Origin: Harriotta raleighana
Lineage: Eukaryota
NCBI GenBank assembly: GCA_050575255.1
Contig: JBNZDD010013683.1
Coordinates: forward strand, 310,001-374,000
Length of the DNA: 64,000 nucleotides
Direction: 5' to 3'
Made by a program: the position numbers. Every line of letters begins with the position of its first letter. Position 1 is the first letter of the stretch. Of the stretch, positions 1-6,000 are shown in pieces.

Positions 1-3000
1 CCAGACGCCATCTCAGAGCACTTCATATAGTACTTAAGTAGCTACACTACAGTGGATTAGCACACTGTTCCTTTAAGTCTGCTCCTTAGTCTGTCCTTAG
101 TTTGTCCCGTCTATGTGCTACATACTACATTTCAGTGCCTTGGGACGTCCTCCCGATGTGAAAGACGTTCTATAAATGTAATTTTGNGTCCTTTAAGTCT
201 GCTCCTTAGTCTGTCCCTAGTTTGTCCCGTCTATGTGCTACATACTACATTTCAGTGCCTTGGGATGTCCTCCCGATGTGAAAGACGTTCTATAAATGTA
301 ATTTTGCTGTTGTTGTTGTTGTTGTACACCTTGACCTGGAGTGATTGACTATTGTACAATAGTTGACAATGACACTGGTTGCTTCCAATTGGAAAGTGCT
401 CCGACATGTAACACATGCAAGTCACTCTGGCAACTCAACAACAACAACAAAATAATTACATTTGTATAGTGCCTTTCATGTCCCAAGGCGCTGGACAGTC
501 AGCGTTTCTGATCTCTGGTTTCTTCCTCAGGTTTACAAGGTCATCATCTATGGGAGTTTGTCCGAGATCTTCTCCTCTTCCCGGGGGAAAACAATGGCAT
601 CCTGAAGTGGGAAGACAGGAAGGAAGGAATCTTCAAAGTTTTAAAATCTGATTCTCTGGCAAAACTGTGGGGCCATCGAAAGAAGAATGAGCGAATGACC
701 TATGAGAAACTTAGCAGGGCATTGAGGTAATTGTGCTTTGCTTCTCCGACAAATAACAACACCTTTGGTCCAGTTTAACATGGAAAAGAATAAGTGTACA
801 TCCATTGCAGTGTATCAACAGAGGATTTAAGAGATGATGGAGTGATAGGTTGAACTTCTACCTCGGATTATATATTTTACTTTATTAATGCAAAATTTCA
901 GATTGTCTAGAATATGTCAAGTTCTACAAATTGTATAGATCGTAATACGGTCTTTAAATTGTGAAGCCGGATTTCTGTAAAGTTCTTTTCAGAAGCTACA
1001 GTAAGTTGGCTTTAATGGTAAAACTGAATTCAACATGTTTCCCAAATTCTCAATTTTCTAGAACTCTGCAATGCTGTGTTAATAGATAAAATCTGGACTC
1101 AGGTGGAAATTTTCCCCCTAGGGATATCTGCATTTTTTGAGAACTGCTCATGTGCTTAATTTAATGTTACAACAATGACCCACCTTCATATGCAAAACTC
1201 TGCTGAAACTTCTTACACCTGAGATCAAAGCACCTAGAGGGATAGTGTGTGTAGACAGCGGAAGAGGAGTGTCTTTAGGTTCACGTGCCCATAGCAAACT
1301 ATAATATGATATAATTGACTTCCAAATTTTGCGTGCAAAATGTGCATAATCCTGTTAAGTGTTTTGAGATGTCTCAACGATGTGTAAGGCAGGCAAATGC
1401 AAAGATTATTATTATTATTAATTAATTAACATATTATTGGGACAGTGATAAAGAGAGATGGCTTATTGCAAGGTCACAACACATACACCAGTTCCTCTTT
1501 TGATCAAGATGTAATTTCATTGTATTTTGCTTTTCAGGCATTATTATAAAACTGGGATTCTGGACCGAGTCGACAGGAGGTTAATGTACAAGTTTGGAAG
1601 GAATGCTTATGGGTGGAGTTAGAAGGCTTCCAAAGACAACTCAATTATATTTGAGTAAAGAGACATTCAGTGTGTATTGGTACCATCTTCAGACCGGACA
1701 CAAATAGGTGGCAATGGTCGAACCTACCTCGGCTACCATCATATTTTCTACTTGAAATGTTACACAGAGATGGAGTTTAACTCTATGGTTTCACTGTTAT
1801 TATGAAGCTTCTCATGAAGAATATAGGTATGAAGAACCCAAGTATTCAAAAAGTTGGTTGTGAAGAGAATTTCAGGCATCCTATTTCAAATTGTAAATAC
1901 GATCACAGATAATCTGAGCGGTCCAAATATAGCAAGTGTTAATGCCTGCTAACAAATGCAAGGATATTTCATACTTTGTTAGGTTATATTTTGGTTATTA
2001 TTATTATTATTATTATTTTCTGTTCATAACTTTCAGATTCCACAATGCCTGTCTTTACATTGTCCATGTGAGCAGAATTTACATCACTGGATGGCTGAGG
2101 ACTTCTCTCTCACATGGGTATTGCAGGAATGAACATCCTAAAATAGTAACATGTATGAATGTTATGATTTTTTTTATAAATTACTTTTATTTTTAAGCAA
2201 TAAAAGCACTTTTTCCATCAAATATAGTCTTCATTTTCAATTGTAATTTTGAGTAGCCATCTGCAAAAACTTTTTGACATTAACTTGGAATCGCTATTCA
2301 TCTGGAGTCCTGTCCCCTAGTGATAAAAGCACTTGCCTCTGAAGTGAAAGGACATGGGTTTGATTCCCAGGCAGGGTGAAACATTAGGCAAGTTTTCTTT
2401 CTCTGCATGCCATTGTTCACCTATCAGTAAGTAGGAACCTGGTTGTTATTCAATTAGAGGATTGCTTTCTAGGGGTAATAATCCATTTTAAAAAATGGTC
2501 ATTCAATTTACTACAGTTTGTTCTGTGTGCAAATTAGCTGTCATGTCTGTCTAGACAAAATACAAATCTTTTGTGCAGGTATTTAAGATGTCCTCCCAGC
2601 ATGAAAGACTCAACATCAAAATGCAAGGATCTTTTTATTCATCACCCATAGACCTGAACATTCTAACACTCATCACATTCAGGTGATTAATATTGTGGGA
2701 AGTAGAGGACCCAGCACAACGCTGGTGAAATGCCATTAAACTTTGTTTAGGTGTTTTTTTTAAACAAATGAAGAAGCAAATGAACCACTTTTCCTGCTAA
2801 CTTTTCCTACTTGCAGCTGGTGGTTAGCCACTGGGTACAGATATACTTCCTGGTCTTTGTCTTGCACTTCACAATCCTGAACCTGTGCCTTCTTTTCCTG
2901 TTGCTCTTGTGATTCAGACAGTATTGTTCTGGTTTTACCTATCCCAATAATCTCCCCTCCCATGCCTCTTTATTGAGGAAAGAGAGCTCCAACGCATCTA

Positions 3001-6000
3001 GTTGTTTCCCCAAGCGTAACCTTCTAACTCTAATGATCAGATCATCTCTGTACTGTGTCAAATTTCCTTATGATGTTGTGGCCTGAATTACAACGTACAT
3101 CAGATATGGCTTGATCAAAAAATGGCAACCAACATTCAGCATGACTTTTGGGATTTGAACTATTTTGGTGGGGGGAGGGGGGAAGGGGTTGAATGCAGGA
3201 CTTAAGTTTTTAAATGAGAAGGAACAACAGTGAGTTTCATCTAAAATAAAAAAGCTTTTAAATATTTTATGATTTCTGCAGAAATATACATGTATCAGCC
3301 ACACATTAAAGCAGTGCTTCAGTAGTTGTACACGTGTATGGGTGAAGAATTTGCTTGCAAATACAGTTCTGTAAAGTCTATTTTGTCCACAAGATGGCAG
3401 CAACTTGTAAAAATGTAACCAGTGGAGGAAATGGTGTGAGAGTTTCCAAGCAGTCATTGACAACAACTTTACCAACAATTTGTATTTATAGGGTAGCATC
3501 CCATTCGGTTAGGATCAGCAAATGAATCCTAAAATGTAAGAAACGGGGAAATAATCCATCGTTTAAATTAGGAGGAAAAAAAATAAGATTAAATGAAAAC
3601 TGTAAAGGAAAGAACTAAAGAGCGTATGAATAATAACAATAATAATAACCCTTGTATTTGATACAGCGCTTTAAAGATGTCTGTAAGCCCTTCACGGAAT
3701 ATACTGTAAAGTGAATTGACGGTATATATTGAAAGGCGCTGTACAAATGCAATGTTGTTGTTGATGATGAGTAATGAAGAAATAAAACAAAGTTGAACAA
3801 GAGGCAAATTTAACTCCATTGAACAAAACCAGTAGAAAATGTTGCAGAACAGGGATTTTGCTGTCCATCTGGCCAGGCTAAGCGAGTGTCACTCACAGTT
3901 TGTTCTGTGGTTAAGTATATGTGTGGCTGTTAGCTTTTTCATGATAAAGAGGCAGGTCACCACATCAGCTGTCACTACAGAGACTAGAAGAACCAGACGC
4001 AGTTCCTGTTATGTCAGACTTTGCTTCATGATCTGAAGCCGAGCAGATGAGCGACTACTCTGAAAAACACGCACTGCAAGAGCAAGGTAACAGAGACAAA
4101 GGCAATTTTATTAATCTTTCTTCAACTCCTGAATTAAATGTTATGCAGCGCGTACAGTAGAAAAATTCCAATCAATATTCGTATATCTTATTAGCTACAC
4201 GTCAATAAATTATGTGTGCCAATAGAATAGTGCACAAAATGGACTGATTGGATTTTTTTCTTCAATGTCTCTTTCGTTTTGTAATAAAATTACGTGATTT
4301 AAATCAACACAATCTACAAGAGCGCTCAGTGACAAGAATATTACGGATTGTTTATACTGGGTTAGAATAATTTTCTAACAATCTTAGACTTATTTGCAAG
4401 AGTTTGCGGTTCCACTGTAACACACTCTGGGATGTGATCTTGCATCAGGGATACTATGTTGTTGTTGTAAATACCAAAGCCAGCAACAGTCTTTTGTGAT
4501 GCATCATTTTAAAAAATGGCAGGGTCATGGACACGTCATATACAGTGCAGATATAATAATAATAATCCTTGCATTTGATATAGCACTTTTCACGTCTTCT
4601 AGACATCTCAAAGTGCTTCACAGAATGCATTGAAAAATGAATTGACTGTATATTTGTGGGCGAAACGGGACGGCCAATTGCGCACAGCAGTGTCCCACAA
4701 ACAGCCGTGGATTTAAATGAATTTATTATTGTTTACAGTTACAGGTAATTTTTGGAAGAGTCGAATTCCTGTTGCTTGCTTTTAATAGAACTTGCATGAT
4801 TGTAAGGTGGAAGCAGATATATAAGACAACACAATGTTGACTGCATAGATATTATTTCAGCCTTTACATATATTAGAATAATTCTGAGTAATACAAACAA
4901 AACTGATTTGGTTTTTAATGCATGCTTTCTGAAGAATATGCTGGGCGGGGATGGGGGGGGTGGGGGGCGGTGGGAATCAAACCCGCATCTGAAAACACAA
5001 GGAAAGTAGATTTGGTGAAATCTTTGCCTTTTGTTGCTGGCTATCCTTTATATCTCACTGAAGCGATTTGTAAATGTCAGAGATTACTTCACATCAAACA
5101 CGTTGTGCTGTGCCAAGTTCAAAAGTGGTAACTGGGTAATTCCAATCACGGTACTCCTCCTACGCTCCAGTGTGTGCTAGATAAGCCCTCGATATACGAG
5201 ACAAGAGATGTGCTGTACTGGTGTCAGGAGCTAGATGGTGCAGCTGCAACAGCTAATGCTTTTCTCTTCCAAGAAACTCGTTGAAATCCTGGTCAGCGTT
5301 CGTGTGGAAAATGGCAGGCTGCTAAATACCACAATGAGTCACGGGCAAAATTATCTTCAGACAGTTGTCTATATTCAACAGCAATATATTCAGGGTGGTG
5401 GGGGGGGGGGGGGGGGAGAAAAAACACACCCTGTTTTGGTGCATTGCAGAGACAATCACAACATTTCCTGCAATTGAGGTTTGTCGAATAGAATTCCCCG
5501 AGGATTTCAGGAATGATCGAGAGCGCGTTATAATGGGTAAAACTTAAGTCTTGGACGATTGTTGTACACTCGATTTTAAACGGAGTATCTTTTTCTGCCT
5601 TTGGTAGGTGTCAATATTTGAAGCAAATGGAGGCCCCGTTGTGCGATACGCCTGAAAAGGCGAGGTGCACGGAAACCGTGCCTTTCAGAAAAATCGAATG
5701 GGAAGACAAAATGTCAAAGGCAAAATGTTACCCGACGGAGCCTTTGGTTACCATGGCTGCCCATAGCATGCAGTTTAAACCTGCTCTATCTCAAACCCAG
5801 GCAATGGGAACCATACCTTTGGAGACCTTGCCTCTGGACAAGAAGACTTTGGAAGATAAGCCGCAACCCAGCAAGTTTGTTCAGAAAAGCAAACCTTTGG
5901 CGTACACCCCAGTGAATACTCAGCTCCCCGAATCCAACCAAGTGAAATCCAAAGCTTTGGAAGACCACAGATTGCATCTGCAGAACCTTTGTCGCATTTG

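What the first reader, a model, noticed from the sequence alone, without database searches (positions are those of the whole stretch)
531..4086. ELF5, not TRAF6, is the immediate upstream neighbour of RAG1, about 2.3 kb from its candidate promoter
Seen: the ELF5 stop is at 1622 and the candidate RAG1 promoter starts near 3900 on the same strand, with no gene between. Established: human and mouse have TRAF6-RAG1-RAG2-IFTAP, with ELF5 on the same chromosome arm but many genes away. Inference: a rearrangement breakpoint lies in 2.2-3.9 kb in one lineage. Either this is a cartilaginous-fish rearrangement or it is the ancestral flank of the RAG transposon insertion. It also leaves almost no room for intergenic upstream RAG1 enhancers, and ELF5 read-through could reach RAG1.
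Basis: partly seen in the sequence, partly recalled or inferred. Interest (0 to 1): 0.65.

Follow-up and report, generated by a model that had tools for sequence, protein, structure and literature searches.

The report
ELF5 sits just upstream of RAG1
In this cartilaginous-fish genome the last two exons of the epithelial transcription factor gene ELF5 end only 4 kb before the start of RAG1 on the same strand, so the gene next to RAG1 differs from the one (TRAF6) found in humans and mice; this is a real but modest difference in gene order.

Summary
Two ETS-domain exons (531-726 and 1538-1622, stop TAG 1620-1622) lie on the + strand 4,004 bp before the RAG1 start codon (5627). No N run and no recognisable gene lies between them. 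Searched separately, both exons score best against ELF5. Each falls in the ELF5 clade, apart from EHF and ELF3. The rest of the window is the usual RAG locus: RAG1 (+), RAG2 (-, convergent) and six IFTAP exons (+). RAG1 branches outside all 10 elasmobranchs tested, and the IFTAP pieces are 73-97% identical to Callorhinchus, so the source is probably a chimaera.

In the shark Heptranchias perlo the ELF5-type protein and RAG1 carry consecutive RefSeq numbers on one chromosome. The adjacency is therefore probably not a misjoin and is probably old within cartilaginous fishes.

Against the human order (CAT, ELF5, EHF ... PRR5L, TRAF6, RAG1, RAG2, IFTAP), one inversion of the ELF5-TRAF6 block would give this arrangement. 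Which state is ancestral cannot be told here.

The "promoter near 3900" is unverified. The "no room for enhancers" argument is weak, because most known mouse RAG enhancers lie on the RAG2 side. Interest is moderate to low. No paper describing this adjacency was found.

The parts
531..726 (+). ELF5 penultimate coding exon (first three quarters of the ETS domain)
   Evidence: AG 529-530, GT 727-728. Pfam Ets 1-60/81, E=1.8e-20. Best PDB match ELF5 at 104.8 bits, against Elf-3 91.3 and EHF 91.1.
727..1537 (+). ELF5 last intron (phase 2)
   Evidence: Canonical GT...AG. The two exon matches abut at residues 70/71 of the ELF5 chain 1wwx_A.
1538..1622 (+). ELF5 last coding exon with stop TAG 1620-1622
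   Evidence: PDB ELF5 45.7 bits, against Elf-3 29.7 and EHF 28.2; those two need a one-residue insertion.
2199..2204 (+). first AATAAA after the ELF5 stop; possible ELF5 poly(A) signal (unverified)
   Evidence: One of nine such hexamers in 1601-5600.
1623..5626 (.). ELF5-RAG1 spacer, 4,004 bp, no recognisable gene
   Evidence: No N. 0 of 11 scanned frames with a Pfam family above cutoff. No Rfam match and no tRNA. 483 of 3,911 bases (1623-5533) are repeated elsewhere in the window.
2303..2494 (.). interspersed repeat copy in the spacer
   Evidence: Self-BLAST.
3387..3401 (+). CTCF-like motif, one mismatch; a lead only
   Evidence: 3 matches in the window against 2.81 expected, so not above chance.
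3631..3731 (.). interspersed repeat copy in the spacer
   Evidence: Self-BLAST.
4543..4732 (.). interspersed repeat copy, the most abundant family in the window (up to 14 overlapping matches)
   Evidence: Self-BLAST.
   Evidence: Donor AAG|GTAACA at 4086 matches 7 of 9 consensus positions. It is one of 8 such sites, and two score higher.
5608..5626 (+). likely start of the RAG1 coding exon, after the best acceptor (AG 5606-5607)
   Evidence: 12 of 15 pyrimidines upstream; best of the two acceptor candidates in 5300-5626.
5627..8794 (+). RAG1 coding sequence, single exon, 1055 aa plus stop
14088..15650 (-). RAG2 coding sequence, 520 aa plus stop, convergent with RAG1
   Evidence: Pfam RAG2 E=4.3e-147 and RAG2_PHD E=4.4e-39.
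26093..40581 (+). IFTAP (NWC): six coding pieces at 26093-26194, 26707-26856, 27173-27244, 30135-30209, 39414-39557 and about 40375-40581
   Evidence: The exon at 26707-26856 hits Callorhinchus V9L2S2 at 78%, E=7.7e-14. That protein is Pfam IFTAP, E=7.9e-56. tblastn of it against the window gives six pieces at 73-97% identity.

Best explanation
The window is the RAG locus of a cartilaginous fish, probably a chimaera. Its gene order is ELF5 (3' end, +), RAG1 (+), RAG2 (-), IFTAP (+). The ELF5 orthologue ends 4.0 kb before the RAG1 start codon, with only non-coding, partly repeat-derived DNA between them. The adjacency is genuine and probably old within cartilaginous fishes. It differs from the bony-vertebrate order ELF5, EHF ... 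PRR5L, TRAF6, RAG1 by a rearrangement with one breakpoint in this spacer. The simplest model is a single inversion of the ELF5-to-TRAF6 block. That inversion would bring the 3' end of ELF5 to face the 5' end of RAG1 on one strand, as seen here.

Shown: the exon identities, orientation, distance and lack of a gap.

Inferred: sharing with sharks, the inversion model, and any regulatory consequence. The consequence I infer is that RAG1 must be insulated from an epithelial gene within 4 kb or less, and probably draws on enhancers on the RAG2/IFTAP side.
For: ELF5 identity.
- Pfam Ets for exon A.
- Both exons score highest against ELF5 among solved structures.
- 111 of the 120 listed database hits to exon A carry an ELF5 name.
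- In separate trees each exon falls in the ELF5 clade (support 99/100 and 98/96), apart from EHF plus ELF3.
- AU tests reject placing the exon with EHF plus ELF3: p=0.044 for exon A and p=0.0012 for exon B.

Locus.
- RAG1, RAG2 and IFTAP are identified.
- There is no N in the spacer.

Source organism.
- RAG1 is sister to 10 of 10 elasmobranch RAG1s (SH-aLRT 99).
- IFTAP pieces are 73-97% identical to Callorhinchus.

A second lineage.
- In Heptranchias perlo the ELF5-type protein is XP_067849623.1 and RAG1 is XP_067849624.1. Both sit on a contig of 76,075,720 bp.

The bony-vertebrate order.
- The human gene list is taken from PMC9408430.
- In the lizard Phrynocephalus forsythii, ELF5 is JRQ81_000563 and RAG1 is JRQ81_000579 on one contig, 16 locus tags apart.
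- In 6 amniote species ELF5 and RAG1 share the same longest-contig length.

Orientation of human ELF5.
- A passage in PMC5587731 places the '3' end of ELF5' at the far edge of the region that holds ELF5, EHF, APIP and PDHX.
- That agrees with my recollection that human ELF5 is on the strand opposite to RAG1.
Against: - The shark evidence is indirect. It assumes that consecutive RefSeq numbers mean neighbouring genes.
- In Pristis pectinata the two proteins are 268 numbers apart on one contig.
- In Scyliorhinus torazame, EHF-like and RAG1 share a contig but are about 52,000 numbers apart. Numbering is therefore not positional throughout, and batoids may differ.
- The window shows nothing upstream of ELF5 exon A, so the size and kind of the rearrangement are unknown.
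- The AU test for exon A is only borderline (p=0.044).
- Neither exon can be excluded from a second ELF5-like group 'B' by the tree alone (p=0.24 and 0.34). Identity does favour group A: 84-85% against 67-71%.
- The strand of human ELF5 is partly recalled.
Confidence: 0.72

Rival explanations
1. Assembly misjoin: the ELF5 exons and RAG1 were joined wrongly through a repeat in the spacer.
For: The spacer holds three interspersed repeat copies (2303-2494, 3631-3731, 4543-4732). Such copies can seed misjoins. I have no read-level data.
Against: There is no N run anywhere in the window. Only 483 of 3,911 spacer bases are repeated in the window. An independent shark annotation gives the ELF5-type gene and RAG1 consecutive accession numbers. 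ELF5 and RAG1 share a chromosome in all 6 amniotes for which both lists give a contig length.
Confidence: 0.04
2. A small local event rather than a large inversion: only ELF5 (with or without EHF) moved or was duplicated to the RAG1 flank, and TRAF6 still lies a short way further upstream.
For: The window ends inside ELF5, so nothing upstream is seen. Cartilaginous fishes have more than one ELF5-like gene (groups A and B), so duplication has occurred in this family.
Against: The exons keep their introns, splice sites and the conserved stop, so this is not a retrocopy. The orientation is exactly what one inversion of the ELF5-TRAF6 block predicts. Only one group-A gene was found for Callorhinchus (one cluster of 3 isoform-like members).
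Confidence: 0.2
3. The ETS exons are not ELF5 but another epithelial ETS paralogue (EHF, ELF3 or the 'group B' gene), or a decaying fragment.
For: RefSeq names the closest shark proteins 'ETS homologous factor'. The AU test does not reject a sister relation to group B (p=0.24 and 0.34). The N-terminal PNT exons lie outside the window.
Against: Those shark proteins are 243-259 aa long (one model is 378 aa). They end ...[14 protein letters not shown] and lack the extra residue of EHF and ELF3 (VDGRRL), as the window does. The ELF5 clade has 99/100 and 98/96 support. Placement with EHF plus ELF3 is rejected. Both exons are open, with canonical splice sites.
Confidence: 0.05

Closest known systems
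Human/mouse RAG locus: TRAF6, RAG1, RAG2, IFTAP(NWC)
   Same: RAG1 and RAG2 are convergent and single-exon coding, with IFTAP beyond RAG2 on the opposite strand to RAG2 (PMC4419350 passages; PMC9408430 table passages).
   Different: The upstream neighbour is the 3' end of ELF5 in tandem, 4 kb away. In mouse it is TRAF6: the mouse 3C map puts the Traf6 promoter fragment about 30 kb from the Rag1 fragment, with a CTCF-bound TAD boundary between Rag1 and Traf6 (PMC8007930).
Heptranchias perlo RefSeq annotation (ELF5-type 'ETS homologous factor' XP_067849623.1 and RAG1 XP_067849624.1)
   Same: The same two genes are numbered consecutively on one chromosome-sized contig. The ELF5-type protein is 84% identical to exon A.
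   Different: I did not see the shark DNA, so its spacing and orientation are unknown. The gene carries a different name there. Its RAG1 lies in a 90%-identity cluster whose representative is 76% identical to the window's.
Human 11p13 ELF5-EHF gene pair
   Same: The last two coding exons encode the ETS domain. The intron position falls between residues 70 and 71 of the ELF5 domain structure, and the stop comes soon after the domain.
   Different: In human, ELF5 is 11 listed genes away from RAG1. From recollection plus the passages, it is on the other strand.

Membership tests
ELF5 (epithelium-specific ETS subfamily) | ETS DNA-binding domain | tested here: met
   Exon A matches Pfam Ets 1-60/81, E=1.8e-20. 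Exon B continues the domain in the ELF5, Elf-3 and EHF chains.
ELF5 (epithelium-specific ETS subfamily) | Groups with ELF5 rather than EHF or ELF3 | tested here: met
   PDB bit scores of 104.8 against 91.3 and 91.1, and 45.7 against 29.7 and 28.2. 111 of 120 listed hits are named ELF5. The clade has 99/100 and 98/96 support. AU p=0.044 and 0.0012 against EHF plus ELF3. Caveat: a sister relation to the ELF5-like group B is not rejected.
ELF5 (epithelium-specific ETS subfamily) | No extra residue in the wing (VDRRL, not VDGRRL) | tested here: met
   Alignments and sequences.
ELF5 (epithelium-specific ETS subfamily) | N-terminal pointed (PNT/SAM) domain | not testable with these tools
   Only residues 160-252 of Callorhinchus ELF5 find a match in the window. 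Earlier exons lie beyond position 1.
RAG1 | RAG1 core recombinase with RING, zf-RAG1 and importin-binding regions | tested here: met
   Pfam RAG1 1229 bits, RAG1_imp_bd E=1.5e-59, zf-RAG1 E=1.4e-09, zf-C3HC4 E=3.4e-05.
Canonical jawed-vertebrate RAG locus | RAG1 and RAG2 adjacent and convergent | tested here: met
   RAG1 at 5627-8794 (+) and RAG2 at 15650-14088 (-).
Canonical jawed-vertebrate RAG locus | IFTAP/NWC beside RAG2 | tested here: met
   Six IFTAP pieces at 26093-40581 (+).
Canonical jawed-vertebrate RAG locus | TRAF6 as the upstream neighbour of RAG1 | tested here: not met
   The 5.6 kb upstream of RAG1 holds ELF5 exons and no other recognisable coding frame. TRAF6 itself could not be searched for, because no TRAF6 sequence was in hand.

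The most novel reading that the evidence does not exclude
The ELF5|RAG1 junction is the ancestral jawed-vertebrate flank of the domesticated RAG transposon, kept in chimaeras and at least some sharks. On this reading the TRAF6-RAG1 adjacency of bony vertebrates arose later by an inversion. The Rag1-Traf6 TAD boundary and the R1B element of mammals would then be bony-vertebrate innovations. The original RAG1 would have been controlled from within 4 kb upstream plus the RAG2/IFTAP side.
Probability: 0.3. Interest if true: 0.55.

Novelty: new variant of a known kind. Interest (0 to 1): 0.38.

Why it matters
The RAG locus is the fixed remnant of a transposon, and its flanks are the only record of where that transposon landed. 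A different upstream neighbour in cartilaginous fishes gives a concrete two-state character: ELF5|RAG1 or TRAF6|RAG1. Jawless-vertebrate gene order can polarise that character. The result also shows that RAG1 can work with a very short upstream flank shared with an epithelial gene. That fits the view that the important enhancers lie on the RAG2/IFTAP side. This is a gene-order difference, not a new kind of system.

Tried and rejected
- Coding content of the spacer. I scanned stop-free frames instead: 0 of 11 reached a cutoff, and 6 frames of 60-73 aa were not scanned.
- Non-coding RNA genes. Rfam and tRNA scans of 1-6000 found nothing.
- Transposon-end relics. RSS-like heptamer-spacer-nonamer scans gave, for the 12-spacer, 4 matches against 1.11 expected, none within 1-5,626. 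The 23-spacer gave 0 matches.
- Insulator. The CTCF motif scan gave 3 matches against 2.81 expected. The single one-mismatch site does lie in the spacer, but it is not above chance.
- Pinning the RAG1 first exon from splice consensus was not possible.
- Literature. Eight full-text searches found no paper describing an ELF5-RAG1 adjacency in any fish.
- The 1996 shark RAG1 gene paper is not held.
- Gene order in other vertebrate genomes could not be read. The only open contig collection holds bacteria and archaea, so I did not use it.
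Full report
**What is in the sequence**

On the + strand an exon runs from 531 to 726, with AG at 529-530 and GT at 727-728. A second exon runs from 1538 to 1622, with AG at 1536-1537 and stop TAG at 1620-1622. A split codon (AG|G) gives ...[32 protein letters not shown].

I built and searched no joined ELF5 model. The full-length protein and its pointed domain therefore stay unchecked, and the earlier exons lie outside the window in any case.

Exon A matches Pfam Ets positions 1-60 of 81 (E=1.8e-20). 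My exon A query was window 533-727. Its last residue R was read with the first intron base (727), which is the same letter as the first base of exon B.

**Is it ELF5?**

- Solved structures. Exon A scores 104.8 bits with ELF5, 91.3 with Elf-3 and 91.1 with EHF. Exon B scores 45.7, 29.7 and 28.2, and Elf-3 and EHF need a one-residue insertion (VDGRRL against VDRRL). The two matches abut at residues 70/71 of the ELF5 chain.
- Large protein set, exon A, longer proteins. 199 proteins had E<=1e-10 among 229 candidates, and 120 were listed. Of the 120:
  - 111 carry an ELF5 name;
  - 3, all cartilaginous fishes (Pristiophorus 85%, Heptranchias 84%, Pristis 77%), are named 'ETS homologous factor';
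  - 2 are 'hypothetical';
  - 4 are unnamed.
  Callorhinchus 'Elf-5-like' is 85% identical.
- The three shark and ray proteins are ELF5-like in length and C-terminus, so their EHF name looks like a mislabel.
- Trees. I used 22 named references, chosen after name look-ups, and dropped unnamed proteins. Two further references, Vombatus and Gopherus ELF5, were dropped after because their C-termini were truncated or interrupted. Each exon, in its own tree, falls in an ELF5 clade (99/100 and 98/96) apart from EHF plus ELF3, next to the cartilaginous-fish group.
- AU tests. These reject holding the exon with EHF plus ELF3: p=0.044 for exon A, which is borderline, and p=0.0012 for exon B.
- Against my reading. 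The tests do not reject a sister relation to a second ELF5-like group 'B' (Callorhinchus P0403, Mustelus, Hemiscyllium, the frog Rhinoderma): p=0.24 and 0.34. Identity favours group A at 84-85% over group B at 67-71%.

**The neighbours**

- RAG1. It occupies one open frame, and Met 5627 aligns with 5 of 5 annotated starts. All RAG1 Pfam domains are present.
- RAG2. It is convergent at 15650-14088.
- IFTAP. An exon at 26707-26856 hits a Callorhinchus protein at 78% (E=7.7e-14). That protein is Pfam IFTAP (E=7.9e-56). It finds six + strand pieces between 26093 and 40581 at 73-97% identity.

The order is therefore ELF5, RAG1, RAG2, IFTAP.

**The spacer (1623-5626, 4,004 bp)**

- It contains no N. 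The window has only single Ns at 187, 11317 and 29235, which I left as they are.
- 0 of 11 scanned frames reached a Pfam cutoff. I scanned 11 of the 17 frames of 60 aa or more.
- There are no Rfam matches and no tRNAs.
- 483 of 3,911 bases are repeated elsewhere in the window.
- The first AATAAA is at 2199.
Its donor at 4086 is one of 8 comparable sites of 235 GTs, and two are better. Only the acceptor at 5607|5608 is clear.

**Whose genome?**

RAG1 is 71-76% identical to the six elasmobranch cluster representatives, and no closer protein was listed. In a quick tree of 19 RAG1s it is sister to all 10 elasmobranchs (SH-aLRT 99), within a cartilaginous-fish side (SH-aLRT 100). Together with the high IFTAP identity to Callorhinchus, this is the place expected of a chimaera. 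No chimaera RAG1 was available, so this is an inference.

**Comparison with other vertebrates**

- Human. [quoted passage not shown]
- Lizard. ELF5 and RAG1 are 16 locus tags apart on one contig.
- Six amniotes. Both genes share the same longest-contig length in the two lists.
- Heptranchias perlo. The ELF5-type protein and RAG1 have consecutive RefSeq numbers (XP_067849623.1 and XP_067849624.1) on one 76-Mb contig. I take this as a sign that they are neighbours. It rests on my own knowledge that RefSeq numbering tends to follow gene order locally.
- Against that. In Pristis the two are 268 numbers apart. In Scyliorhinus torazame, EHF-like and RAG1 on one contig are about 52,000 numbers apart. 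Non-consecutive numbers are uninformative, and batoids may differ.

**Model**

PMC5587731 (passages) places the 3' end of ELF5 at the outer edge of the region that holds ELF5, EHF, APIP and PDHX. This agrees with my recollection that human ELF5 is transcribed away from EHF, on the strand opposite to RAG1. One inversion of the ELF5-TRAF6 block would then give ELF5 and RAG1 in tandem, as in the window. The window cannot test this, and polarity is open.

**Regulation**

- In mouse, Ep, Ed, Erag and the ASE lie upstream of Rag2, and a silencer lies between the two genes (PMC4419350, passages).
- The same review states that R-TEn and R2B are not conserved in amphibians or fish.

A short upstream flank is therefore not in itself surprising.

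**Limits**

The conservation data behind the statements in that review may sit there.
- I found no paper on this adjacency in eight full-text searches.

**Verdict**

As a character for the history of the RAG insertion it is of moderate to low interest. The promoter, read-through and enhancer arguments are untested.

Noticed in passing
window 69-306 and 11249-11396: Two of the three single Ns (187 and 11317) each lie within a near-identical two-copy tandem duplication (2.0 x 120 nt at 98% matches; 2.2 x 69 nt at 93% matches). N187 sits at the junction of the two copies (69-186 and 189-306). I did not look at the third N (29235). The Ns were left as they are.
   Followed up: partly
proteins P0001, P0003, P0096: RefSeq/UniRef name the shark and sawfish proteins closest to this gene 'ETS homologous factor'. 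Their length, C-terminus and tree position are those of ELF5, so the adjacency to RAG1 is hidden under a misleading name.
   Followed up: yes
proteins P0403 (Callorhinchus), P0286 (Mustelus), P0283 (Hemiscyllium), P0406 (Rhinoderma frog): A further ELF5-like group ('B', 100/99 support) occurs in cartilaginous fishes and a frog. It has its own signature (..FAQLWG.., MNYEKL, GRLTYKFG) and carries mixed automatic names. It may be an old paralogue lost in amniotes.
   Followed up: partly
window 3387-3401 (+): The only one-mismatch match to the CTCF core consensus in the whole window lies in the ELF5-RAG1 spacer. The total count is at chance (3 against 2.81).
   Followed up: partly
window 16640-16886: An imperfect (GT)n array of about 125 units (74% matches) lies about 1 kb beyond the RAG2 start codon, on the RAG2 5' side.
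   Followed up: no
window 4543-4732 and copies elsewhere: A short interspersed repeat family is scattered on both strands, with up to 14 overlapping self-matches. In all, 6,360 of 64,000 bases are repeated within the window.
   Followed up: partly
window 40600-64000: About 23 kb beyond the last IFTAP piece has no assigned gene. Six of its larger frames gave no Pfam family above cutoff.
   Followed up: partly
window 31852-32268 (-): A 139-aa frame inside an IFTAP intron gives a sub-threshold Forkhead match (E=0.0014, 19.1 bits against a cutoff of 27). It is probably chance.
   Followed up: no
one search list: No galeomorph shark or skate ELF5 of group A appeared among the 120 listed hits; only Pristiophorus, Heptranchias, Pristis and Callorhinchus did. 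The search passes on few candidates, so this is no evidence of loss.
   Followed up: no
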